Translations under genes and position numbers: made by a program
Notes under the pieces: generated by a model
The model's input: only the letters and a program-made list of their open reading frames with translations
The model's database searches: none
What the model was told of the DNA's origin: nothing
Assembly: GCA_023150835.1 (NCBI GenBank)
Contig: JAKLKB010000015.1
Span: 50,920-70,919, forward strand
Origin: Myxococcota bacterium
GTDB taxonomy: Bacteria > Myxococcota_C > UBA6777
Length of the DNA stretch: 20,000 nt
Direction: 5' to 3'
Shown: positions 5,321 through 20,000 of the stretch, in pieces
Numbering within the stretch: the first letter of the stretch is position 1
Layout of the letters: every line of letters begins with the position of its first letter

Positions 5321-5647
5321 GCTCTGCGCCTTTCTTCTTTCGAAGCCTCTTGTGTTCGAGCGTATCGCATCGGGTGGCTCGATTCGACCATCACCCCGCA
5401 CTACGCTCCGCCTTCATCCCGCCCAATATCGCCTTCTGCTCCCACCTCGTCAACTCTGCTCCACCAAAAGCCGTGATACGATATCCAAGTGATGCGTACA
5501 CAAAGAATAGCGCACAGACGCCCTTATGGTTGGGCAGTGGCTGCCCCTACGTCTTTACGATAGAACGATGGGCGGATTTCGTATGAGGTGGTTTTCAAGC
5601 GACGCAAACGCGGCTTTTTTGGCTCACGGCGTCACTCCGAACCACCC

Positions 5648-7870: not shown

Positions 7871-7932
7871 CGCCACTCCCCATCACTCGTTTGCAAAAGC
7901 CTCTTTTTCGATCCAATAGGCGTTACACATTC

Positions 7933-8069
7933 GATAAGTTTTGTGGGGCTTTGCCCCATACCCCACAAGGGAACCCTGCTCCCTTGACCCCGTATCAGCG
8001 GGACAAACAGACGTTTTTCAAACAAACAACAGCTCCGCTTGATGTACCACGAACACGGGGGGGCTTATC
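7933..8069 (+). repeat. Dispersed multi-hairpin non-coding repeat, copy 1 (MITE/REP-like or structured ncRNA)
   Basis: Core 7942-8059 aligns without gaps to 18344-18461 (+) and 18872-18989 (-). Hairpins TGTGGGGC-TTT-GCCCCATA and AAGGGA...TCCCTT. Flanked by GATAAGTT/GGCTTATC. Confidence 0.85.
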
Positions 8070-8146: not shown

Positions 8147-9349
8147 TCAGCAAAGATCGACCGCTCGCTGCGCCGCGACGTAACGATCCAAACGGGCGTA
8201 GTCTTGGCCGAGCACGATGCTTTGATAGGCTTTATCGCTTCCAAACAGCGACAACGCCGCCTGCCCCTGTTGAGAACCGATCTCCACCAACAACCACCCC
8301 TGCGGCTTCAAAAACCTCGGAGCTTCCCGCACGATCCGACGCACGATGTCCAAACCATCCTCTCCAGCCTCCAGCGCCAAATGCGGCTCATAATCACGCA
8401 CCTCACGTTGAAGGCCCGCCATCTCATCCCTTCGGATGTACGGCGGGTTTGACACGATTAGATCAAAAGACTGCCCTTCCACCGACGACCACAGATCCCC
8501 TTCGACAAGACGGATCCGCTGCGAAAAGCCCAAGGCTTCGATGTTTTTGCGCGCAACCTCCAAGGCTCCAACCGAGATATCCGAAGCCCACACCGTCGCC
8601 CTCGGAAACTCGCTCGCCAACGCACACGCCAACGCACCCGAACCCGTACACAAATCCAAAAACCGCCATTCTTTCAACCGAACACGACTCTCTTTTTCCT
8701 TTGATGATTCGATTTGCTCCGACGCTTCGGCTTGTTCGATGCCTGCGTTTTCGTCCGATGCTTCGGCTTGTTCGATGCCTGCGTTTTCGTCCGATGCTTC
8801 GGCTTGTTCGATGCCTGCGTTTTCGTCCGATGCTTCGGCTTGTTCGATGCCTGCGTTTTCGTCCGATGCTTCGGCCTGTTCGGCGGTGTTTGTGTGGGAA
8901 GCTTCTTTTGATCGTGCCGAAAGATCAGGCTGTTGCTCGTTCCAACGCAAGACCTTTTTGGGGCGGGTTGATGTGAAAGCCTCGGAAAATTCGATCTCTC
9001 CAGACACAGAAGCCCGAAGGCGGCGACAAGCTTCTTCGACAAGGCACTCTGTTTCGGGGCGAGGGATCAAAACACGAGGATCGACGGCGAATGTCAGCGA
9101 CCAAAACTCTTGGGTTCCCAAGATGTATTGGGTGGGTTCGCGGCTGGTTCGACGTTTTAAAAGGGCCTTGTATCCGGCCAATTCTTCTGCGGTAAGGGGT
9201 TTCTGATATCGTAGATACAAGTCGACCCGCGACATCGCCAACGAATGCCCCAACAACAGTTCTGCGGTACGTTTTGGAGCGTCGATCTCGTTCTTTTTCA
9301 GGTAGGTAGCGCTCCACTCCAACACCTTCCCAACGGTCCAATCCAACAT
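8147..9349 (-). CDS. prmC: Peptide chain release factor N5-glutamine methyltransferase, with a large repeat insertion
   Basis: REPTQYILG.QEFWS, VLIPRPETECLVE, LDLCTGSG, DLIVSNPPYI, EP.LAL.AGEDGLD, EIG..QG. Lies 1 nt downstream of the prfA stop. Confidence 0.95.
   Translation of the reverse strand: MLDWTVGKVLEWSATYLKKNEIDAPKRTAELLLGHSLAMSRVDLYLRYQKPLTAEELAGYKALLKRRTSREPTQYILGTQEFWSLTFAVDPRVLIPRPETECLVEEACRRLRASVSGEIEFSEAFTSTRPKKVLRWNEQQPDLSARSKEASHTNTAEQAEASDENAGIEQAEASDENAGIEQAEASDENAGIEQAEASDENAGIEQAEASEQIESSKEKESRVRLKEWRFLDLCTGSGALACALASEFPRATVWASDISVGALEVARKNIEALGFSQRIRLVEGDLWSSVEGQSFDLIVSNPPYIRRDEMAGLQREVRDYEPHLALEAGEDGLDIVRRIVREAPRFLKPQGWLLVEIGSQQGQAALSLFGSDKAYQSIVLGQDYARLDRYVAAQRAVDLC
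8718..8882. repeat. 36-bp in-frame tandem repeat (about 4.6 copies) inside prmC
   Basis: Unit TCCGATGCTTCGGCTTGTTCGATGCCTGCGTTTTCG starting at 8718, 8754, 8790, 8826 and 8862 (partial). Encodes (EQAEASDENAGI)n. Confidence 0.97.
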
Positions 9350-10917: not shown

Positions 10918-12750
10918 ATGAAGCCTGTCAAACAAAGCCAGCCACCCGGCCTTTACGTCTTGTTTTTCGCAGAGGCATGGGAACGCTTTTCGTATTACGG
11001 TATGCGCGCTCTGCTTGTTCTCTACATGGTTGGACACCTCGACTTTGACAAGAACCAAGCTCTTTCGGTCTATGGGACTTATACGGGCCTTGTTTATCTG
11101 ACTCCCGTGTTGGGGGGCTATCTCGCAGACCGCTTTTTGGGGGCACGCAAGGCCATCCTGATCGGCGGGATCATCATGGCATTGGGCCATCTCGCGATGG
11201 CCTTTGAGAGTATGCTCTATCCCGCCCTGACGTTGCTGATCATCGGAAACGGCTTCTTTAAGCCCAATATCTCGACGATCGTCGGCGGCCTCTACGAAGA
11301 AAAAGACGCACGCCGCGACGGTGGATTCGCGATCTTTTATATGGGCATCAACCTTGGGGCATTCTTTTCTCCCCTTGTCTGCGGCTCTTTGGGACAACAA
11401 TACTACGAACTCACCCTTTTTGGGACCAAGATGCAGATCGGCGGATGGCACTGGGGCTTTGGAGCCGCAGGGATCGGTATGATCATCGGCCTGCTCGTCT
11501 TTCTTGCCGGGCAGCGCTTCCTTGGCACCATCGGATTCCCTCCCCACATCACGAATCCCACCGCAGAAACACGACTTAACGCCAAAGACTGGCGCGATAT
11601 CTTCTTGATGGTGATCGCGGCTTGTCTTGTGACGGCGGCGGTCATGCCTTTGTGGGAACCCACCAGTTGGGTCGTTCGCTTGATCCTCGGACTCGTTTTG
11701 ATCAGCGTCTTTTTCTTCGGATGGACCGACGAATCTGGCTCACAACAGCACCATCACCAAGCCGAACAGCCCACACTCACCAAAGAAGAAACCGACCGCA
11801 TCGTCTACATCCTCATGATGTGTGTGCCGATCATCGTCTTTTGGCTCGGCTTTGAACAAGCAGGCGGAACCTTTAACCTCTTTGCTCAAAACAACACCGC
11901 CCTCCCCCGCTACGCATACTGCGCCGCCAAAGAATCCAAAAAAGTCAAAGAATCCAACCTCTTCAACCTTAAACTCATCGGTCAAACCGAGTCTTTCAAG
12001 CGCGGTGAACAAAAGAAAAGCGCAAAAGATCCCAACCAAAAACCAACAGAACACTACAAGCCCAAGATCAAGTGTCTTCCAAGCGCTCCCCCCCAAGCCA
12101 TCGCAGCCACCACCCCCAAGATCACTTGCCCCGCCAACGAAGTCGCCAAAGTCTGGGAGATGCCCGCCTCCTACTTCCAATCGCTCAACCCGATGCTGAT
12201 CATGCTACTCGCTCCGCTGTTTTCGCTGATGTGGCTGCGGATGGGCAACTGGAAAAAGCCCCCCTCCGTCACCACCAAGATGTCTTTTGGCGTCCTGTTC
12301 TTGGGGATCGGCTTTATCATTATGTTCGCTGGAGCGGCCTTTACCGCTCATGGGCGTGTCAATCCAATGTGGCTTGTCGGCGTCTATTTCTTCCACACCG
12401 TCGGCGAGTTGTGCTTGTCACCTGTCGGCCTTTCGATGGTCACCAAGGTCGCTCCCTTGCGCCTTGTCTCCTTGATGATGGGCGTCTTCTTCGCTGCCAC
12501 CGCCAGCGCCAACTATCTCGCTGGGAACCTCGAACAACTCCTCGACAAAGAGATGATCGCCGGTCCCATCGACCTGATCAGCGTCAAGATCGTCGCTCTC
12601 TTGGGCATCTCTGAAAATGCCCTCACCTGCGAGATGTACGGATTTATGCGCATCAGCGTCTTTGTTACCGTCCTTTCTGTTGTCTCTTTCGTCTTCTTCC
12701 TCCTCACCCGCAAAGTCGTTGAACGCCTCTCACACGGACGCTCCGCCTGA
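10918..12750 (+). CDS. POT/PTR family proton-coupled di/tripeptide MFS transporter
   Basis: EAWERFSYYGMRA (ExxERF motif), GGYLADRFLG, GNGFFKPNIS, FYMGINLGAF, FEQAG, FQSLNP, GELCLSPVGLS. Start placed at ATG 10918 after AGAAAGGA. Confidence 0.95.
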   Translation: MKPVKQSQPPGLYVLFFAEAWERFSYYGMRALLVLYMVGHLDFDKNQALSVYGTYTGLVYLTPVLGGYLADRFLGARKAILIGGIIMALGHLAMAFESMLYPALTLLIIGNGFFKPNISTIVGGLYEEKDARRDGGFAIFYMGINLGAFFSPLVCGSLGQQYYELTLFGTKMQIGGWHWGFGAAGIGMIIGLLVFLAGQRFLGTIGFPPHITNPTAETRLNAKDWRDIFLMVIAACLVTAAVMPLWEPTSWVVRLILGLVLISVFFFGWTDESGSQQHHHQAEQPTLTKEETDRIVYILMMCVPIIVFWLGFEQAGGTFNLFAQNNTALPRYAYCAAKESKKVKESNLFNLKLIGQTESFKRGEQKKSAKDPNQKPTEHYKPKIKCLPSAPPQAIAATTPKITCPANEVAKVWEMPASYFQSLNPMLIMLLAPLFSLMWLRMGNWKKPPSVTTKMSFGVLFLGIGFIIMFAGAAFTAHGRVNPMWLVGVYFFHTVGELCLSPVGLSMVTKVAPLRLVSLMMGVFFAATASANYLAGNLEQLLDKEMIAGPIDLISVKIVALLGISENALTCEMYGFMRISVFVTVLSVVSFVFFLLTRKVVERLSHGRSA

Positions 12751-12796
12751 TCTCAACACTTCCTTACCAACCCTGCACGATACATGGGAGCGCGTG

Positions 12797-15724
12797 ATGG
12801 CCGACCTCTTGAAGCTTGAAGAAAAGCTACAGCTTCACACCAAACATCGCGAGGTGATCTGGGAAACCCCCGACCACCTTGACGATCCCCTACCCATCCT
12901 TTCTGCCGACGAGATCGAGCTTCGCTTCTATGAGCAGTTTTTCTTTGGCCGCGATCTCGAACCCTACCCTGTCCAAGAAGAAGCCTTTGGAGCGATCTTC
13001 CAAGGCGAAAACGCCCTCATCACCGTCCCCACAGGCACAGGCAAAACCATGATCGCCAAAGCAGGGATGTACAAAGCCCTGTATTCGGGGCGTAGCGCGA
13101 TCTATACAACGCCTCTTCGCGCACTCACCGAAGAAAAATACAGAGAGCTTTGCGACGACTTTGGCGAACAACACGTCGGATTCGCAACAGGCGACTACAA
13201 GATCAACGCCAAAGCCCCGATCCAAGTAGTCGTTGCCGAGATCCTTTGGAACCAGATCTTCAGCAATCGCCAGATCATGCCCGCTGACGTCGTGATCATG
13301 GATGAAGGCCACTACTTCAACGACCCCGAACGCGGCTATGTCTGGGAACAATCGATCATCGGCCTCCATCCGCGCACACAACTGATCGTCCTCTCCGCCA
13401 CCGTCGGAAACCCCCAACAGTTCTGCCAATGGTCTTATCTTGTGCGGCGCGCCCCCATGAAGCTCGTCTCCTCGGATGAACGGCGCGTTCCGCTTTATCA
13501 CAAGTATGAAGAAGAGTACCTTGTCGACCGCGCCAAAGACCTCTTCCATCATGGCGAATATCCCGTGATTATCTTCGTCTTTGGCCGACAACAATGCTTC
13601 GATTACGCTCGCCTGCTCAAAAGCTGCCGACGTTTTACCACCGACGCCGAGCAAAAGCTGATCGAGGCCGCGATCAACCCGATCCTCTTGCCCAAAGGCA
13701 TGGGCGAAACGCTGCGCTCGTTGCTGATGCACGGCATCGGTGTTCACCACGCAGGGATCTTGCCTGCCTACAAACGCCTTGTCGAAGAACTTACCCTCCA
13801 ACGCCTGATCAAATTCGTTGTCAGCACCGAGACCATCTCTGCGGGCATCAACCTTCCTGCCAAACGTGTGGTCTTTCCGAGCCTACGCAAACACGTCTCT
13901 GGCAAAGCCCGACTGTTGCGGCCTGACGAATACCACCAGATGGCGGGACGTGCGGGCCGCCCTCAATTCGACACCGAAGGCATCGCCATTACCCTCGCCC
14001 CCGAACAAGTCGTCCAAGAACTCCGAAAAGAACTTGCCGATGCTGCCCGTTCTCCCTACAAGATCGACGAAGCGCAGATCCGACGCCGTGCTTATTCTCG
14101 CGCACGCACAAAAGCCCAACAGAACGACGATATCATCTGGGATCAAGAAGCCCACCAATCCCTCGTCGATGGCAAACCTGCTGCCCTCAAAAGCCACACC
14201 AAGATCACCGCCGAACAGATCCTTGCCATCGGACTCCCCGACCTCAGCAGCGAGCGCCTGCCCGGCGAAGATCTCGTCAAAGCCGAGATCGAAGCCAAAG
14301 AACGAAAACGCCTCGAACGCGAACAAGAGATCGCACAACGCGAACAAGAAAAAGAACGCCGCGAACAACAACGCGCTCTCGGTAAACGCGGCTCTGGCCT
14401 TGGCTCCGCCTTTACTTCCCTCTCCACCCTTCTCCCCACTTCACCAGAAGACACTCCCCCCCCATCCACCGAGGAGATCGAACCTCTTACCGAAAACACG
14501 CAACAGCCCCCATCCACCGAGGAGATCGAACCTCTCACCGAAAACACGCAACAGCCCCCATCCACCGAGGAGATCGAACCTCTTACCGAAAACACGCAAC
14601 AGCCCCCATCCACCGAGGCATCCGAGCCTCCCACTTCCACCGACCCATCGTCTCTCCCAGTAAACGATGCAGAGCAAGCCGCACCTATCGCGGAAACAGA
14701 CGATGCCTCCGCCCGTATAGAGGACACGGCTCTCCACCAAGAGGCGGCCTTCACAACGACCTCTGCGGAAAATGCCGTCGCTCCGACGGTACGCCCTGCA
14801 CGCTCTTTTTCGCGATGGCCCGAACACGAACGAAAAAGTTGGATAGAACAAGCGATGGCCTTTGAAAAGCGCCCTCGCATCACCGAAGCATCCACAGAAA
14901 CATACCACGACGTCGTGGACTTGCGCGCTCCCTCGAAGCAACGCAAACACTTCAAAATGGATCAGGACTCTACAGAAAACTTTGCCCATCTTGCGGGACT
15001 TCCGGCGTATATGAAACTGGATATCCGCACGATCATCGACAACCTTTTCCTTGAGGATGTCGAAAAGCGCGAAGCGCACAAGATCCTCGTCAAGATCACT
15101 GCAAACCTCAAAGCGATGGGTGTTCTCAACGAGCGCGGCATCCAAGAAAAAGGCGAGTTGATCGGCAAACTGCGCGGAATCGACGGGCCGTATGTGTATT
15201 ATTGTTTGATGGAACACGATCTGTCTTATGTGCAATGCCGCGAATTGGTCGAATACCTCGTCGATCACGACGTGATCCAACGACGCCTCAATCGCAAAGA
15301 AGAAGACGAAAAAAGAGACTGGATCCGCAATCGCTTACGAGAACGGCGGCAAGAAAACCCGCAGATCACGTGGGACGATGTGCGCGAAGAATATGAGCGC
15401 GAATTCCCCCGTAAGCTCGAATGGATCGAAGAGCTTCATCAGCGCTTTTTGCGTCTAATCCCGCATCCCGAACTACACGGGGGAAAGCTTTACAAAAACA
15501 CTTGGGCGCAGATCGAAGATCAGCAACAAACCTTTGTCGAGTTCGTCTTACGCCACGATCTCGAACAAGAAGAAGGTAGCCTGTTCACTTACCTTGCTCG
15601 CGTGATGAAAAGCGCCCGCTTGCTTCACGAAGTGACGGGTATTCAAGAATTCCGCAAGATCGAAAGCAGCATTCGCTACAAACTGGCCGTCATCGACGAC
15701 CGCATCCTCGACGAGATCTGGTAG
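12797..15724 (+). CDS. Ski2-like DEAD/DEAH-box (SF2) helicase with a long low-complexity insertion
   Basis: Q-motif YPVQEEA, PTGTGKT, YTTPLRALTEEK, DEGH, LSAT, GIGVHHAG, TETISAGINLPA, QMAGRAGR. ATG 12797 follows GGGAG. Confidence 0.92.
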   Translation: MADLLKLEEKLQLHTKHREVIWETPDHLDDPLPILSADEIELRFYEQFFFGRDLEPYPVQEEAFGAIFQGENALITVPTGTGKTMIAKAGMYKALYSGRSAIYTTPLRALTEEKYRELCDDFGEQHVGFATGDYKINAKAPIQVVVAEILWNQIFSNRQIMPADVVIMDEGHYFNDPERGYVWEQSIIGLHPRTQLIVLSATVGNPQQFCQWSYLVRRAPMKLVSSDERRVPLYHKYEEEYLVDRAKDLFHHGEYPVIIFVFGRQQCFDYARLLKSCRRFTTDAEQKLIEAAINPILLPKGMGETLRSLLMHGIGVHHAGILPAYKRLVEELTLQRLIKFVVSTETISAGINLPAKRVVFPSLRKHVSGKARLLRPDEYHQMAGRAGRPQFDTEGIAITLAPEQVVQELRKELADAARSPYKIDEAQIRRRAYSRARTKAQQNDDIIWDQEAHQSLVDGKPAALKSHTKITAEQILAIGLPDLSSERLPGEDLVKAEIEAKERKRLEREQEIAQREQEKERREQQRALGKRGSGLGSAFTSLSTLLPTSPEDTPPPSTEEIEPLTENTQQPPSTEEIEPLTENTQQPPSTEEIEPLTENTQQPPSTEASEPPTSTDPSSLPVNDAEQAAPIAETDDASARIEDTALHQEAAFTTTSAENAVAPTVRPARSFSRWPEHERKSWIEQAMAFEKRPRITEASTETYHDVVDLRAPSKQRKHFKMDQDSTENFAHLAGLPAYMKLDIRTIIDNLFLEDVEKREAHKILVKITANLKAMGVLNERGIQEKGELIGKLRGIDGPYVYYCLMEHDLSYVQCRELVEYLVDHDVIQRRLNRKEEDEKRDWIRNRLRERRQENPQITWDDVREEYEREFPRKLEWIEELHQRFLRLIPHPELHGGKLYKNTWAQIEDQQQTFVEFVLRHDLEQEEGSLFTYLARVMKSARLLHEVTGIQEFRKIESSIRYKLAVIDDRILDEIW
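14459..14618. repeat. 48-bp in-frame tandem repeat (about 3.3 copies) inside the helicase gene
   Basis: Unit CCCCCATCCACCGAGGAGATCGAACCTCT(T/C)ACCGAAAACACGCAACAG at 14459, 14507, 14555 and partial at 14603. Encodes (PPSTEEIEPLTENTQQ)n. Confidence 0.97.
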
Positions 15725-15793: not shown

Positions 15794-16654
15794 CTAGTCC
15801 AACGAAAACCAGAGATCACCTTCACACAAAACAGGCGATCGCTCCAACGCCACCAAGGCCAACTGCCCAGAATCCGAGCAAACAGGTTGCAGCGTGAAAG
15901 AACGTATCCATGCGTAGCCTCGATGTTGATCTTCACGCATACACTGTAGCCGCTGGCCTTGCGAGAGAGTCCCCGTATAACACAAGGCATACCACCAAAC
16001 GAGATCCTTCCCTTCCTGTGGGGCTTTGCGCACCCACTCACCCCAAGAGCGTTCCCGCAGCGATGCTCCACGCAAGCGATCTCCCACACACAACGATACA
16101 CCACCCACCCATTGCACCCACCCCTCTTCGCACAGGCTCGCACACGGTCCACCCTCCGCCCACAACGAACGGATGCGAATCAACCCGATTATCCGACCGT
16201 TTCGCATCACTTCAAAAGAGGCCCCACGCCGTATCTCTCGCCCTTCCACCGAAATCCGCGCAAGTCGCAGCCCTTCGGAAATCGTATACACCCGAATCAC
16301 GGACGATTGCGTAGATACGTGGCTCGTTCTCTCTGACAAAAACGGCAGCGCCAAATAAGACGTGTTGGTGTCGTGTGCTTTGCCGAAAACTTCGTCCTCA
16401 CCGCCTGCTCTGTTTGTGCTTGTCTGGGCCGAAGCAACTCCGAGCGATGGCGGGCATTTTTCTTCGACCACAAACCCCGCTGTCGGCCAATGATCCAAGA
16501 CTTCGTAGGCAAGGGCTGTTGCGCTTGGTTTGGCCCCATAGGCAAGGGCCATTGCGCTTGGTTTGGCCCCGCAGGCAAGGGCTGTTGCGCTTGGTTTGGG
16601 AAGTGGAGTGCGGCCTTGTGTTGCGGTGGTTTGGGCGTCATCAAGACCTCGCAT
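15794..16654 (-). CDS. Hypothetical protein: repeat-containing N-terminus and two putative IF2-C2/EF-Tu-like beta-barrels
   Basis: 286 aa. ATG preceded by GGAGG. Fills the gap between coaX and the convergent helicase. Barrel similarity is by eye only. Confidence 0.6.
   Translation of the reverse strand: MRGLDDAQTTATQGRTPLPKPSATALACGAKPSAMALAYGAKPSATALAYEVLDHWPTAGFVVEEKCPPSLGVASAQTSTNRAGGEDEVFGKAHDTNTSYLALPFLSERTSHVSTQSSVIRVYTISEGLRLARISVEGREIRRGASFEVMRNGRIIGLIRIRSLWAEGGPCASLCEEGWVQWVGGVSLCVGDRLRGASLRERSWGEWVRKAPQEGKDLVWWYALCYTGTLSQGQRLQCMREDQHRGYAWIRSFTLQPVCSDSGQLALVALERSPVLCEGDLWFSLD
16507..16599. repeat. 33-bp in-frame tandem repeat (about 2.8 copies)
   Basis: Unit AGGCAAGGGC(TG/CA)TTGCGCTTGGTTTGGCCCC.. 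at 16507, 16540 and 16573. Encodes KPSA(T/M)ALA(C/Y)GA on the minus strand. Confidence 0.95.
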
Positions 16655-16758: not shown

Positions 16759-17529
16759 TCAGCGCACGTTGCGTTCGTAGATCAAGCGCAATCCTTCGAG
16801 GGTCAGATCGGGGATGGATTCTTGGATCAGCGCGGAATCTTGCGTAAACAGCGAGGCGAGTCCACCCGTCGAGATCACAAAAGGGTTGGCCTCATCGATC
16901 TCTTGGAGCATGCGTTTGGTGATCTCATCGATCAATCCGACGTAACCAAAGAACAGCCCTGCCTGCATACTTTGGACGGTATTGCGTCCGATCAAACGAG
17001 AGGGGCGTGTCACTTCGACACGCGGGAGTTTTGAGGCTCGTTGGAACAGGGCTTCCGCAGAGATGCCGATCCCGGGAGCGATGGCTCCGCCCATGTATTC
17101 GCCGCGTGGAGAGATGGCATCGAATGTCGTCGCTGTCCCCAAATCCACCACCACACCACCTTTGTGATAACGCTGATAAGCGGCTACCGCATTTACGATG
17201 CGATCCGCTCCGACTTCACGGGGGTTTTCGTACAAGATCGGCATCCCCGTTTTCAATCCGGGGCCGACCTGCATCGGTTTTTGGCTAAAATAACTCTCGC
17301 ACATATCCTCGATCACACCGCTAAGCGGCGGAACCACCGAGGCCATGATCACCCCTTGTACATCCGAGGATTCGATCTTGTGATGTTGAAGCAGCGAACG
17401 CACCAAGACACCGTACTCATCGGCAGTACGATCGCGTGAAGTCTGAAGACGCCAGTGATGCACAAGATCTTTGTCCCGATACAATCCCATCACAATGTTG
17501 GTGTTTCCGATATCGATCACAAGCAACAT
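16759..17529 (-). CDS. coaX: Type III pantothenate kinase
   Basis: MLLVIDIGNTNIVMG, ASVVPP, YENPREVGADRIVNAVAA, VVDLGTATTFD, GGAIAPG, ISTGG, PDLTLEGL. Start placed at ATG 17529. Confidence 0.96.
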   Translation of the reverse strand: MLLVIDIGNTNIVMGLYRDKDLVHHWRLQTSRDRTADEYGVLVRSLLQHHKIESSDVQGVIMASVVPPLSGVIEDMCESYFSQKPMQVGPGLKTGMPILYENPREVGADRIVNAVAAYQRYHKGGVVVDLGTATTFDAISPRGEYMGGAIAPGIGISAEALFQRASKLPRVEVTRPSRLIGRNTVQSMQAGLFFGYVGLIDEITKRMLQEIDEANPFVISTGGLASLFTQDSALIQESIPDLTLEGLRLIYERNVR

Positions 17530-17565
17530 ACGCAACTCCCCAACCATCGCAAAGGGAGACCGCGT

Positions 17566-18279
17566 TCACGGTCCCCAACCAACCCAATGTTCGCCGTCTT
17601 CAAAGTACTCTCTCTTCCAGATCGGCACAACCTCTTTCAATCGATCGATGGTAAACGAACACGCCGCAAAGGCTTCTTTACGATGCGGCGTCGAAACCGC
17701 GATCGCAACCGCAAGATCACCGATCGCCAACGTCCCGACGCGGTGATGGATCGCGATCTTGGCTTGAGGCCATTGTTCGAGGGCTTCATCGACCACACGC
17801 TGCATCTGAGTCAGCACCATCGGGGGGTAGGCTTCATAATCAAGATGCGTCACAACACGCCCCTGACTTTGGCGACGGACGGCCCCTGCGAAGGTGACGA
17901 CGGCCCCTGCCTCGCTGCGCTCCACAAGCCGCGAAACATCGGATACATCGAGTGGATCGAACGACAAGCGCAGACGGCCTTCTGCGGCAACAAGGCTTTC
18001 TGGTGGCTCAGAAGCCGCAGTTCGTGGATCGGGCGCACCACCACTCACAGGCGGCAACAGCGCGATCTCATCGCCATCACGAAGCGGCTCGTGAGACTCG
18101 GCGTATTGGTGGTTTCGAGCGATCGCCACACGCTCCACGATCGACCCCAAGGACGGATGCTTTCGCCCAAGTTCTCGCAAAAGTGCTTGAATATCCGCTC
18201 CCTCTGCGATCTCGATATCTTCTTCTCGCAAACCCACAAGTTCGCGCAACACCGCAAAATAACACACTCGAACGCGCAC
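17566..18279 (-). CDS. moaD-moaE: Fused molybdopterin synthase MoaD-MoaE (MoaX-like)
   Basis: MoaD part: VCYFAVLRE...LRDGDEIALLPPVSGG. MoaE part: AGAVVTFAGAVR, LDYEAYPPM, HRVGTLAIGD, STPHRKEAF, IDRLKEVVPIWKRE. Start placed at GTG 18279 after GAGG. Confidence 0.93.
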   Translation of the reverse strand: MRVRVCYFAVLRELVGLREEDIEIAEGADIQALLRELGRKHPSLGSIVERVAIARNHQYAESHEPLRDGDEIALLPPVSGGAPDPRTAASEPPESLVAAEGRLRLSFDPLDVSDVSRLVERSEAGAVVTFAGAVRRQSQGRVVTHLDYEAYPPMVLTQMQRVVDEALEQWPQAKIAIHHRVGTLAIGDLAVAIAVSTPHRKEAFAACSFTIDRLKEVVPIWKREYFEDGEHWVGWGP

Positions 18280-18333
18280 ACGCACCTCGCTTGCTAACGC
18301 ATTGATATGGCTTGTGATCAGGCTTATGCAGTT

Positions 18334-18477
18334 CGGTGGTTTTTGTGGGGCGTTGCCCCACACCCCACAAGGGAGCGCGGCTCCCTTGACCCCGACTTGA
18401 CGGGGAGAGCACAGGTTTTTCAAACCAACGACAGCGTCGCTTGAAGTGCCGCGAACACGTCTTTTTTGTCAACACCG
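18334..18477 (+). repeat. Dispersed multi-hairpin non-coding repeat, copy 2
   Basis: Core 18344-18461. Hairpins TGTGGGGC-GTT-GCCCCACA, AAGGGAGC-GCG-GCTCCCTT and CCCCG-ACTTGA-CGGGG. Conserved GTTTTTCAAAC and CGAACACG. Flanked by CGGTG/CACCG. Confidence 0.85.
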
Positions 18478-18595
18478 TGGCGCGTTGGCTCTCGTTAAAA
18501 ACACCGCTGCATCGGCTTTTTTTGGGAGCATCCGATGCCGTGATGGATGGCATTCGCCGCGTTTTCGTTACGAGGCTTGTGGTGTGCCTTGCCTT

Positions 18596-18679
18596 CGGGA
18601 TTTAGCTGGGTTAGCTAGATCGTACCAAGTCAAACAAGTGCTCGCTGCGCTTCACAAATTGGATGAAATGAGTGAGTGA
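18596..18679 (+). pseudogene. hicA: 3' remnant of a HicA-like toxin gene
   Basis: GLARSYQVKQVLAALHKL resembles the C-terminal helix of HicA-type toxins (G.AK.YQVKQVL.AI..L). Its stop lies 1 nt before the hicB ATG. No recognisable GSH active-site motif upstream. Confidence 0.55.
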
Positions 18680-18680
18680 G

Positions 18681-18893
18681 ATGGAACGACATCAACTTTA
18701 TTGGTATATCGTGGAATGGGAAGAAGAGGATCAAGTGTTTGTGGCGCGTGTCGCCGAATTTCCTTCGCTGAGCGCACACGGAAACACACAAGAACAAGCG
18801 ATGGCCGAGTTGCAAGGTGTGGTTGCGTTTGTGTTGGAGGATCTAGAAGAGCTGCGCAGTCGGCTAAAAAACCCGTGTTCGCGTCATGCCTAG
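18681..18893 (+). CDS. hicB: HicB-family antitoxin N-terminal domain, probably C-terminally truncated by repeat copy 3
   Basis: YIVEWEEEDQVFVARVAEFPSLSAHGNTQEQAMAEL is a typical HicB N-terminal domain. After EDLEE the frame runs into the repeat (LRSRLKNPCSRHA*), with no GEPIPEP linker or RHH domain. Confidence 0.8.
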   Translation: MERHQLYWYIVEWEEEDQVFVARVAEFPSLSAHGNTQEQAMAELQGVVAFVLEDLEELRSRLKNPCSRHA

Positions 18894-19008
18894 CGGAGCC
18901 GCTGTTTGTTTGAAAAACATCTGTTTGTTCCGCCGATACGGGGTCAAGGGAGCCGTGCTCCCTTGTGGGGCGTGGGGTGAAACCCCACATCGCGAACCCA
19001 ACCGCGCA
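18853..19008 (-). repeat. Dispersed multi-hairpin non-coding repeat, copy 3 (inverted)
   Basis: The reverse complement of 18872-18989 matches the copy 1 core at 98/118 positions (hand count, no gaps). An 11-bp closing stem TGCGCGGTTGG/CCGACTGCGCA forms on the minus strand. Confidence 0.85.
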
Positions 19009-19046
19009 AGCCAAGCCAGAGAACGAACAGAAGAAAGGTGTAAGGG

Positions 19047-19814
19047 ATGTCGGAGTGGCTTCGTGTGAGTCTCGTGATCGCGTTGTTTGTTTGCTACACG
19101 GTGTTGCGGGTTCATGCGCGACGGAAACAACGGAGATATCCATCGCCCCCCTTGCCCGAACAGTCGCCGAAGATATCGCTTTCCCCACAAGCACCTCGCC
19201 AATCTCCACAACTCAACCGCCCAAGCGAAGGTTTCTTGGGACGCCTCGGGCGTCGGTTGTTGGTGGGCGTGTTTTTTGTGGGGACGCTGTTGTACGTAGT
19301 GGTGCTTCCGTCGACCAAGATGTCCTATGATTGGGCGCGTCAGACGTATCTTTTCACACAGCTGGATATCGCGCAGTGGTGGGGTTGGTTGGGCCTTGTG
19401 CTGGCGCTCGGTGGATTGGGCTTGTTGGCGTGGTCGCACCATGCGCTGGCTCAATTTTGGAGTCCAGAGATCCAAGTGCGTGACGATCATCGGCTCATTC
19501 AACACGGCCCCTACCAACGCATCCGACACCCGATGTACACTAGCCTATTTTGCTTTTTTGCGGGAGTTTCGCTGATCTCGGCAAGCTTGTTATTGGCGGT
19601 GCCTGCGGCCTTGGTCTCGCTGTATTTGGTGAACCGCACACGCGCCGAAGAACGGTTGTTAACGATCCATCTTGGCCTGCCTTACCGCGAATATGCCCAA
19701 GTGACGGGGCGATTCTTCCCAACGCTTCGGCGAAAAAAAACAGCCCACCGCCCCCGAACAACCGCCCAAACCACAGATCGCCCGTCCGATTTCGATCCTC
19801 CCTCACAGCCTTAG
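19047..19814 (+). CDS. Isoprenylcysteine carboxyl methyltransferase (ICMT/Ste14/PEMT) family membrane protein
   Basis: Multiple TMs. HRLIQHGPYQRIRHPMYTS (RHPxY motif), EERLL, YREYAQVTGRFFP. AGAAAGG upstream. Confidence 0.9.
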   Translation: MSEWLRVSLVIALFVCYTVLRVHARRKQRRYPSPPLPEQSPKISLSPQAPRQSPQLNRPSEGFLGRLGRRLLVGVFFVGTLLYVVVLPSTKMSYDWARQTYLFTQLDIAQWWGWLGLVLALGGLGLLAWSHHALAQFWSPEIQVRDDHRLIQHGPYQRIRHPMYTSLFCFFAGVSLISASLLLAVPAALVSLYLVNRTRAEERLLTIHLGLPYREYAQVTGRFFPTLRRKKTAHRPRTTAQTTDRPSDFDPPSQP

Positions 19815-19894
19815 CCGCGACATCATCGGACTCACGCTGTTGGGCAGAAGAGGTGGGGTGCCACCCCATACGCGCCTTGTGAAGCGGAGGAAAG

Positions 19895-19932
19895 CCCCCC
19901 ACCCCGCCCTCCCCCGTGAACAGGGGAGGGAG
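19895..19932. repeat. REP-like GC-rich palindrome
   Basis: CCCCCACCCCG followed by CCCTCCCC-CGTGAACA-GGGGAGGG (8-bp perfect stem, 19907-19930) downstream of the ICMT gene. Confidence 0.55.
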
Positions 19933-20000
19933 CGAAAGTCGGAAGCCTCGGGGATTTTGTTTTTTCATGACGCACGCTGTATGCACGAAATGCAGACGCT

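What the first reader, a model, noticed from the sequence alone, without database searches (positions are those of the whole stretch)
18334..19008. Inverted pair of the elements brackets a doubly truncated hicAB toxin-antitoxin fragment
Seen: copy 2 (+) and copy 3 (-) are inverted, with tails pointing inward, around a 375-bp segment (18478-18852) whose hic part looks more AT-rich than the flanking genes. The segment carries only the 3' end of a hicA-like gene and the 5' domain of hicB. HicB similarity stops where copy 3 begins (EDLEE|LRSRLK). Inference: the element either inserted into and inactivated a TA locus, or captured it as a miniature composite transposon or invertible cassette between the divergent moaDE and ICMT genes.
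Basis: partly seen in the sequence, partly recalled or inferred. Interest (0 to 1): 0.65.

Follow-up and report, generated by a model that had tools for sequence, protein, structure and literature searches.

The report
Decayed hicAB remnant between two MITEs
Two copies of a small, very abundant mobile DNA element landed separately on either side of a toxin-antitoxin gene pair that has since been cut down to a dead remnant, which is ordinary genome decay and not a new kind of mobile cassette or switch.

Summary
Two inverted copies of one repeat (18317-18477 +, 18851-19016 -) bracket a hicA-like remnant and the first 57 codons of hicB. HicB similarity stops at EDLEE, at the edge of copy 3. All five close homologues are 114-121 aa and carry the C-terminal HicB domain.

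The repeats are MITEs: a 172-nt unit with a 15-nt terminal inverted repeat, 3-4-nt target duplications, about 790 hits in the 7.6-Mb genome, and clean filled and empty sites against a sister species.

The pair is not a unit:
- A public contig, 99% identical on both flanks, has copy 2 and the hic DNA but 207 other letters in place of copy 3. That is the length expected for an intact hicB end.
- The hic fragment occurs once in the genome.
- No target duplication flanks the pair.
- Both inner MITE ends lack their outer 7-10 nt, so deletions, not insertions, made the truncations.

The hicA remnant evolves neutrally: 15 non-synonymous against 3 synonymous codon differences, plus a stop in the sister species.

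Capture and inversion are not supported. One point remains unexplained: genome-wide, convergent MITE neighbours outnumber divergent ones 30 to 6.

This scan had already noted MITE-like repeats on other contigs of this genome.

The parts
17566..18290 (-). moaDE (MoaD/ThiS-MoaE fusion), left neighbour. The start is placed near 18290; the mechanical ORF runs on to 18423 through the MITE.
   Evidence: Pfam MoaE 1.1e-40 and ThiS 1.4e-19.
18317..18477 (+). MITE copy 2. The head inverted repeat starts at 18317. The tail stops at model position 162 of 172, so the last 10 nt of the tail repeat are missing.
   Evidence: nhmmer against the 172-nt TIR-to-TIR profile, E 5.6e-40; family alignment.
18485..18679 (+). 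hicA-like pseudogene remnant. It has no start codon of its own and lacks about 16-17 N-terminal codons.
   Evidence: tblastn with HicA-like proteins taken from loci of HicB relatives. Against the sister species: 15 non-synonymous and 3 synonymous codon differences, and a stop codon there. No Pfam hit for the remnant itself.
18681..18851 (+). hicB remnant, codons 1-57 (N-terminal domain only). The open frame continues to 18893 on MITE sequence.
   Evidence: Five homologues of 114-121 aa with PF05534; similarity ends at EDLEE. There is a 7-nt deletion in the sister species.
18851..19016 (-). MITE copy 3. The head repeat is complete and ends at about 19016. The tail repeat lacks its outer ~7 nt where it meets hicB codon 57.
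   Evidence: nhmmer E 7.6e-38. A public contig replaces 18851-19020 with 207 other letters.
19047..19814 (+). ICMT/PEMT-family methyltransferase, right neighbour.
   Evidence: Pfam PEMT 7.2e-12 and ICMT 9.3e-12.
7917..8059 (+). MITE copy 1 of the same family (model 2-145).
   Evidence: nhmmer E 4.5e-27.

Best explanation
The interval holds the wreck of a horizontally acquired hicAB toxin-antitoxin operon. It was broken in steps by two independent insertions of one MITE family and by deletions next to them.

Shown: the repeats are MITEs that moved after this species split from its sister species. Both hic genes are truncated exactly at the inner ends of the MITEs. Those inner ends are themselves cut. 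The hicA remnant is a neutrally drifting pseudogene.

Inferred order:
1. Copy 2 arrived upstream of hicA. A deletion then took its last ~10 nt, the hicA promoter and about 16 codons, which killed the toxin.
2. With the toxin dead, hicB was dispensable.
3. Copy 3 arrived just upstream of the ICMT gene. A deletion of about 210 nt removed its outer ~7 nt, the short spacer and hicB codons 58-117.

The pair has no function as a unit. It neither moves nor inverts.
For: MITE nature:
- A 172-nt TIR-to-TIR unit; 34 copies carry both 15-nt inverted repeats, and 14 of those 34 have an exact 3-4-nt flank repeat (examples).
- 790 hits in the genome.
- About 15 clean filled or empty sites in 312 kb compared with the sister species G001.
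- Found in G000 and G001. Not found in G002 (64% complete) or in G003-G005.

Truncations:
- HicB homologues, 5 of 5, run 114-121 aa and have PF05534.
- The hicA-like similarity covers 18485/18512-18679 only.
- Copy 2 ends at model position 162. Copy 3's last positions overlap hicB-derived bases.

Independent, stepwise origin:
- Run X20, record 19 (1007 nt), matches 18366-18850 with 4 differences, then has 207 other letters, then matches 19021-19335 with 5 differences.
- 207 equals 183 nt (codons 58-117 plus stop, as in homologue P0002) plus 24.
- In two other convergent pairs (C138, C235), one MITE is shared with G001 and the other is G000-only.

Decay:
- hicA remnant, G000 against G001: 15 non-synonymous and 3 synonymous codon differences, with a stop in G001.
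- hicB remnant: a 7-nt deletion in G001.

Stability: the same junctions occur in G001, and a 605-nt contig from another study matches 18366-18970 with no differences.
Against: - The 207 letters of the X20 contig were not shown to me. That they are the hicB 3' end rests on their length and on the existence of P0002, whose first 57 residues match the window at 56 positions.
- The copy-3 allele is shared with G001 (about 93% identity nearby), while a 99%-identical strain lacks it. This needs an extra assumption: transfer of the allele by recombination, or an old polymorphism. The 96-99% G000-G001 identity over 18772-19171 against about 93% around it fits transfer, but it could also reflect constraint on the ICMT promoter.
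- Most copies of the family have poorly matching ends; only 84 of 626 body-complete copies reach both termini. Copy 2's missing tail could therefore partly be divergence.
- No transposase with these ends was found.
Confidence: 0.75

Rival explanations
1. Each MITE inserted directly into the gene (copy 2 into hicA, copy 3 into hicB). The other halves of the genes, on the head sides, were lost later by deletions that started exactly at the MITE heads.
For: The heads are complete and lie only about 25-30 nt from the neighbouring start codons. Transposase-made adjacent deletions start at an intact element end; this is established knowledge, recalled.
Against: The tail junctions are not canonical. 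The outer 7-10 nt of both tail repeats are absent, so a deletion at each tail is needed anyway. In the X20 contig, the sequence to the right of the 207 letters resumes at 19021, next to the head of copy 3. That places the insertion site there.
Confidence: 0.12
2. The two MITEs and the hic fragment form a miniature composite transposon that captured the fragment elsewhere and carried it to this site using the two outward-facing heads.
For: Both outer ends are heads with a recognisable inverted repeat, which is all a composite needs. Thirty-one convergent pairs with gaps of 150-1200 nt exist, counting this one, and some hold small genes.
Against: The hic fragment is single-copy. The flanks outside the heads are GTG and CAG, so there is no duplication. 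The X20 contig has copy 2 and the hic DNA without copy 3. Two of two other testable pairs were built one MITE at a time. Eight of the 30 other pairs hold whole-domain genes and none holds a cut domain.
Confidence: 0.04
3. The segment is an invertible cassette that flips by recombination between the inverted MITEs.
For: The repeats are inverted. Contig joints on opposite strands at 18415/18919 and nearby were seen in runs X7 and X20.
Against: Those joints have only 32-38 nt on the shorter side and lie wholly inside the repeats, so other MITE copies explain them. The arms are 73% alike and share at most 17 identical bases in a row. That is below the roughly 25 nt usually needed for efficient homologous recombination (recalled). 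The orientation is the same in G000, in G001 and in X20 record 19. The cargo is a pseudogene.
Confidence: 0.03

Closest known systems
Bacterial MITEs (for example the Correia/NEMIS elements of Neisseria; recalled, not tested here)
   Same: Short and non-coding, with terminal inverted repeats, short target duplications, hundreds of mostly intergenic copies, and filled or empty sites between close relatives.
   Different: No autonomous partner was found in this assembly. The family was found only in this species and one sister species among the six related genomes held. A shorter class, about 114-118 nt, shares the same ends.
hicAB type II toxin-antitoxin operons (Makarova et al. 2009, PMC2701414; seen only in a search listing and abstract start)
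   Same: The gene order is hicA then hicB. The close HicB homologues have an N-terminal domain plus a C-terminal PF05534 domain. The upstream genes of more distant relatives pass the HicA_toxin cut-off.
   Different: Here both genes are cut and no longer functional. The nearest upstream genes belong to a divergent HicA-like subgroup: 6 of 7 give no Pfam hit at E 0.01 or below, and the seventh scores below the cut-off.
MITE-flanked composite units such as integron mobilisation units (recalled from the literature, not looked up)
   Same: Two copies of a MITE bracket a piece of foreign DNA.
   Different: There is no target duplication around the unit, no second copy and stepwise assembly. This locus fails the defining tests.
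   Same: It is probably the 114-118-nt class that shares the inverted repeat with this family.
   Different: The link to ISAba11/IS701 was not confirmed here. A search of the genome with PF13546 found nothing.

Membership tests
MITE | Short unit without coding capacity | tested here: met
   TIR-to-TIR length is 159-176 nt in 34 copies, mode 171-173.
MITE | Terminal inverted repeats | tested here: met
   A 15-nt repeat stands at both ends of the profile consensus and in filled-site alignments. Only 84 of 626 body-complete copies reach both termini.
MITE | Target-site duplication | tested here: met
   14 of 34 copies with both repeats have an exact flank repeat of 3 or 4 nt; chance expectation is about 0.5. 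Clear 3-4-nt repeats in the listing.
MITE | Filled and empty sites between relatives | tested here: met
   About 15 clean presence/absence sites in 312 kb of G001 against G000. The G001 contigs were chosen because they carry copies.
MITE | Autonomous IS with the same ends and a transposase | tested here: inconclusive
   25 facing repeat pairs 0.8-3.2 kb apart. The 8 longest ORFs I looked at appear by eye to be ordinary genes; they were not scanned. No PF13546 match. The assembly is 93% complete and breaks at repeats.
HicAB toxin-antitoxin | HicB with N-terminal domain and C-terminal DNA-binding domain (PF05534) | tested here: not met
   The window ORF has only weak N-terminal hits below the cut-offs (UPF0150 22.9 bits against 27.3). 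The C-terminal domain is absent. The homologues have it.
HicAB toxin-antitoxin | Intact HicA toxin gene directly upstream | tested here: not met
   The remnant has no own start and no Pfam hit. It is similar to HicA-like genes only over 18485/18512-18679. There is a stop codon in G001.
Composite transposon | Target duplication flanking the whole unit | tested here: not met
   GTG to the left of the copy 2 head, CAG to the right of the copy 3 head.
Composite transposon | The unit occurs at more than one site, or is present or absent as a whole | tested here: not met
   The hic fragment is single-copy. The X20 contig lacks copy 3 only.
Invertible DNA segment | Both orientations present in a population | tested here: inconclusive
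   Logan contigs break inside both MITEs. The opposite-strand joints lie within the repeats, with sides of 32-38 nt. G000, G001 and X20 record 19 share one orientation.
Invertible DNA segment | Dedicated recombinase next to the segment | not tested
   Only the two neighbours were scanned, and they are moaDE and an ICMT-family gene.

The most novel reading that the evidence does not exclude
The tail-to-tail arrangement is favoured genome-wide. Among neighbouring copies 150-1000 nt apart there are 30 convergent pairs against 6 divergent, 12 ++ and 15 --. MITE pairs might therefore be kept by selection as two-sided transcriptional insulators around short genes or foreign DNA, or the element might prefer to insert near an existing copy in the inverted orientation. 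The hic locus would be one such insulated islet.
Probability: 0.1. Interest if true: 0.5.

Novelty: new member of a known kind. Interest (0 to 1): 0.2.

Why it matters
On its own it matters little. It is a clean, datable example of how a chromosomal toxin-antitoxin pair dies: apparently the toxin first, then the now useless antitoxin. It also shows how a very abundant MITE family reshapes intergenic DNA in an uncultured lineage from wastewater sludge.

It is useful for annotation. The 73-aa 'HicB' ORF is a chimera of 57 hicB codons and 16 MITE-encoded residues, and it should be marked as a pseudogene.

The orientation bias of neighbouring MITEs is the only feature that could lead to something new.

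Tried and rejected
- Inversion. The opposite-strand joints in read laying (18415/18919, 18416/18917, 18420/18913) and two 'skip' joints (18394-18931, 18431-18931) have sides of 20-38 nt inside the repeats. I read them as other MITE copies, not as evidence.
- Rest of the hic genes elsewhere. tblastn with five full-length HicB homologues, four of their C-terminal parts and 29 HicA-like proteins found nothing beyond the window locus.
- Intact relative at the DNA level. The genome contigs and metagenome-contig scans kept only HicB relatives of 61% identity or less.
- Known RNA family. Rfam found no match at E up to 1 in 17500-20000.
- Terminator in the tail. The fold of copy 2 (z -2.58) puts no strong hairpin before the T run, so I make no terminator claim. 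One search failed on a length limit and was repeated.
- Transposase. PF13546 found nothing in the genome. ORFs between distant repeat pairs looked like ordinary genes by eye only.
- Gene-orientation explanation for the convergent bias. A crude gene call gave 5' neighbour on the same strand 295 against opposite 219, which does not explain the bias.
- Literature. One search on MITE, toxin-antitoxin, pseudogene and HicB listed general TA papers only; none was read.

Full report
**1. What is there**

The window is the last 20 kb of contig C134 in a 7.56-Mb, 239-contig assembly with 55% G+C. Between a MoaD-MoaE fusion gene on the minus strand and an ICMT/PEMT-family methyltransferase gene on the plus strand lie two inverted copies of one repeat. 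The repeat finder gives arms 18321-18467 and 18866-19012, 73% complementary. A third copy lies at 7930-8059, and the three align with 79% mean column identity.

The 73-aa ORF 18672-18893 has only weak, sub-threshold Pfam hits to HicB-type N-terminal domains. A search of the large protein collection returned, besides the window's own product, five homologues of 114-121 aa. All carry PF05534, and they are 60-83% identical to the window ORF over the alignment. The last 16 residues of the ORF are a read-through into copy 3.

**2. The hicA-like remnant**

I read the ORFs that end at the start of hicB in the loci of HicB relatives. I searched 29 distinct ones against 18300-18720. The closest subgroup aligns in a single frame from about 18485/18512 to 18679, at 36-44% identity and E about 1e-7 for this small target.

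About 16-17 N-terminal codons and any start codon of its own are missing. More distant members of the set pass the HicA_toxin cut-off (2 of 9 scanned). Of the seven from the closest subgroup, one gives a sub-threshold hit and six give none at E 0.01 or below, so 'hicA-like' is the right label. The remnant covers most of the gene, not only its 3' end.

**3. What the repeats are**

An iterated nhmmer search finds 783 copies in the genome, 667 of them covering at least 100 model positions. I compared 312 kb of the sister species G001 (same genus, about 93% identity) with the genome. The comparison gave about 15 sites where one genome holds a 145-200-nt insert, sometimes with other repeats attached, and the other holds nothing or a few bases.

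The filled sites showed that the unit is longer than my first model and ends in a 15-nt terminal inverted repeat. Copies with both repeats are 159-176 nt long. Fourteen of these 34 have an exact 3- or 4-nt direct repeat of the flank. A profile built from them finds 790 hits.

The family is present in G000 and G001. In G001, all 40 scored candidates out of 642 matched. It was not found in G002 (same genus, 64% complete) or in three genomes of the same family. These are MITEs. No transposase with these ends was found, and Rfam has no match. Earlier notes of this scan had already flagged MITE-like repeats on other contigs of this genome.

**4. Anatomy of the two copies**

- Copy 2 aligns to model positions 6-162 at 18322-18477. 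Its head repeat starts at 18317, about 27 nt from the moaD start region. The last 10 positions of the tail repeat have no counterpart.
- Copy 3 aligns to positions 7-170 at 19010-18847. Its head is complete and ends near 19016, 30 nt before the ICMT start codon. The last positions of its tail overlap bases that belong to hicB codons 55-57, so the outer ~7 nt of the tail repeat are missing.

Both truncation points of the hic genes are therefore non-canonical MITE ends. They are deletion junctions, not insertion junctions.

**5. Evidence from other genomes and samples**

- G001 has the same locus, with the same hicB-copy 3 junction and the same copy 2-hicA junction. In addition it has a 7-nt deletion in hicB, and it has lost the first ~118 nt of copy 2.
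- Between the two species, the hicA remnant differs at 15 non-synonymous and 3 synonymous codons and has a stop codon in G001. The hicB remnant differs at 2 non-synonymous and 3 synonymous codons. This is neutral decay.
- In G002, moaDE and ICMT lie on different contigs, each behind another co-directional gene. The junction is therefore specific to the G000/G001 lineage.
- Twenty public runs from eight studies hold at least half of the sampled words of 18200-19100.
- A 605-nt contig of run X7 matches 18366-18970 without a difference.
- In run X20, a 1007-nt contig matches 18366-18850 (4 differences), then has 207 letters that do not lie on the window, then matches 19021-19335 (5 differences). 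Copy 3 is therefore absent there, while copy 2 and the hic DNA are present.
- The length fits an intact hicB. Codons 58-117 plus the stop, as in homologue P0002, make 183 nt, which leaves a 24-nt spacer. I could not see the letters themselves.

**6. History I infer**

The toxin gene was hit first, because copy 2 and the hicA truncation are shared by all forms seen. The antitoxin gene stayed whole in some strains. In the line leading to the window, copy 3 then inserted just upstream of ICMT, and about 210 nt were deleted from its tail into hicB.

One difficulty remains. G001, the more distant genome, shares the copy-3 allele, while a 99%-identical strain lacks it. G000-G001 identity rises to 96-99% over 18772-19171 against about 93% around it. 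That fits transfer of this allele by homologous recombination between the two lineages. It is not proof.

**7. Tests of the capture and switch ideas**

- The hic fragment occurs once in the genome, and its missing parts occur nowhere.
- The three bases outside the two heads differ.
- The arms share at most 17 identical bases in a row.
- I scanned 114 inner ORFs from the other 30 convergent pairs with gaps of 150-1200 nt. Eight pairs hold a Pfam domain over its cut-off that is covered nearly end to end (YbjN, BMC, YhhN, GBBH-like_N, YbjQ_1, C2, Transglut_core, ApbA). One pair has only coiled-coil-type hits. Twenty-one have no hit. None shows a cut domain.
- For the two pairs that lie in the G001 DNA I fetched, one MITE is shared and the other is G000-only. 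Pairs arise one insertion at a time.
- The opposite-strand joints in the laid contigs lie inside the repeats and carry no weight.

**8. What stays open**

Neighbouring copies 150-1000 nt apart are convergent 30 times and divergent 6 times, with 12 ++ and 15 --. A crude gene call did not explain this. I have no tested explanation for it.

**9. Verdict**

The locus is an ordinary case of a toxin-antitoxin pair eroded by MITE insertions and adjacent deletions. It is of low general interest.

Noticed in passing
window 19826-20000 (contig end): A second repeat family starts here with a similar end motif and hairpin. It has 164 BLAST hits in the genome, many 94-100% identical and lying at contig ends. 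In internal copies its core sits inside the first hairpin of the MITE, as if nested.
   Followed up: partly
genome-wide (G000): A shorter class shares the same terminal repeat with the 172-nt family. Of 80 facing repeat pairs, 44 are 110-119 nt apart, with clear 3-4-nt flank repeats.
   Followed up: partly
genome-wide (G000): Neighbouring MITE copies 150-1000 nt apart are convergent 30 times, divergent 6 times, ++ 12 times and -- 15 times. Unexplained.
   Followed up: partly
window 18772-19171 against L178 (G001): Identity to the sister species is 96-99% here, against about 93% in the neighbouring genes. This could be recent exchange of the allele or a constrained promoter region.
   Followed up: no
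L093, L094 (G002): In the third species of the genus, moaDE and the ICMT gene are on different contigs, each preceded by a co-directional gene of 730-770 aa. The window's divergent junction is therefore a rearrangement point.
   Followed up: partly
window 8710-8889, 14459-14634, 16506-16604: Tandem repeats of 36, 48 and 33 nt. In the crude gene call the first two fall inside called genes (8147-9349 on the minus strand, 12617-15724 on the plus strand); the third lies outside any called gene, though mechanical ORFs cover it.
   Followed up: no
window 5595-5640: A solo tail fragment of the MITE (model 126-171, E 1.4e-5).
   Followed up: no
The genome search, scope 'phylum': The phylum-level group of this genome holds only six species genomes in the collection, of 5-11 Mb.
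   Followed up: no
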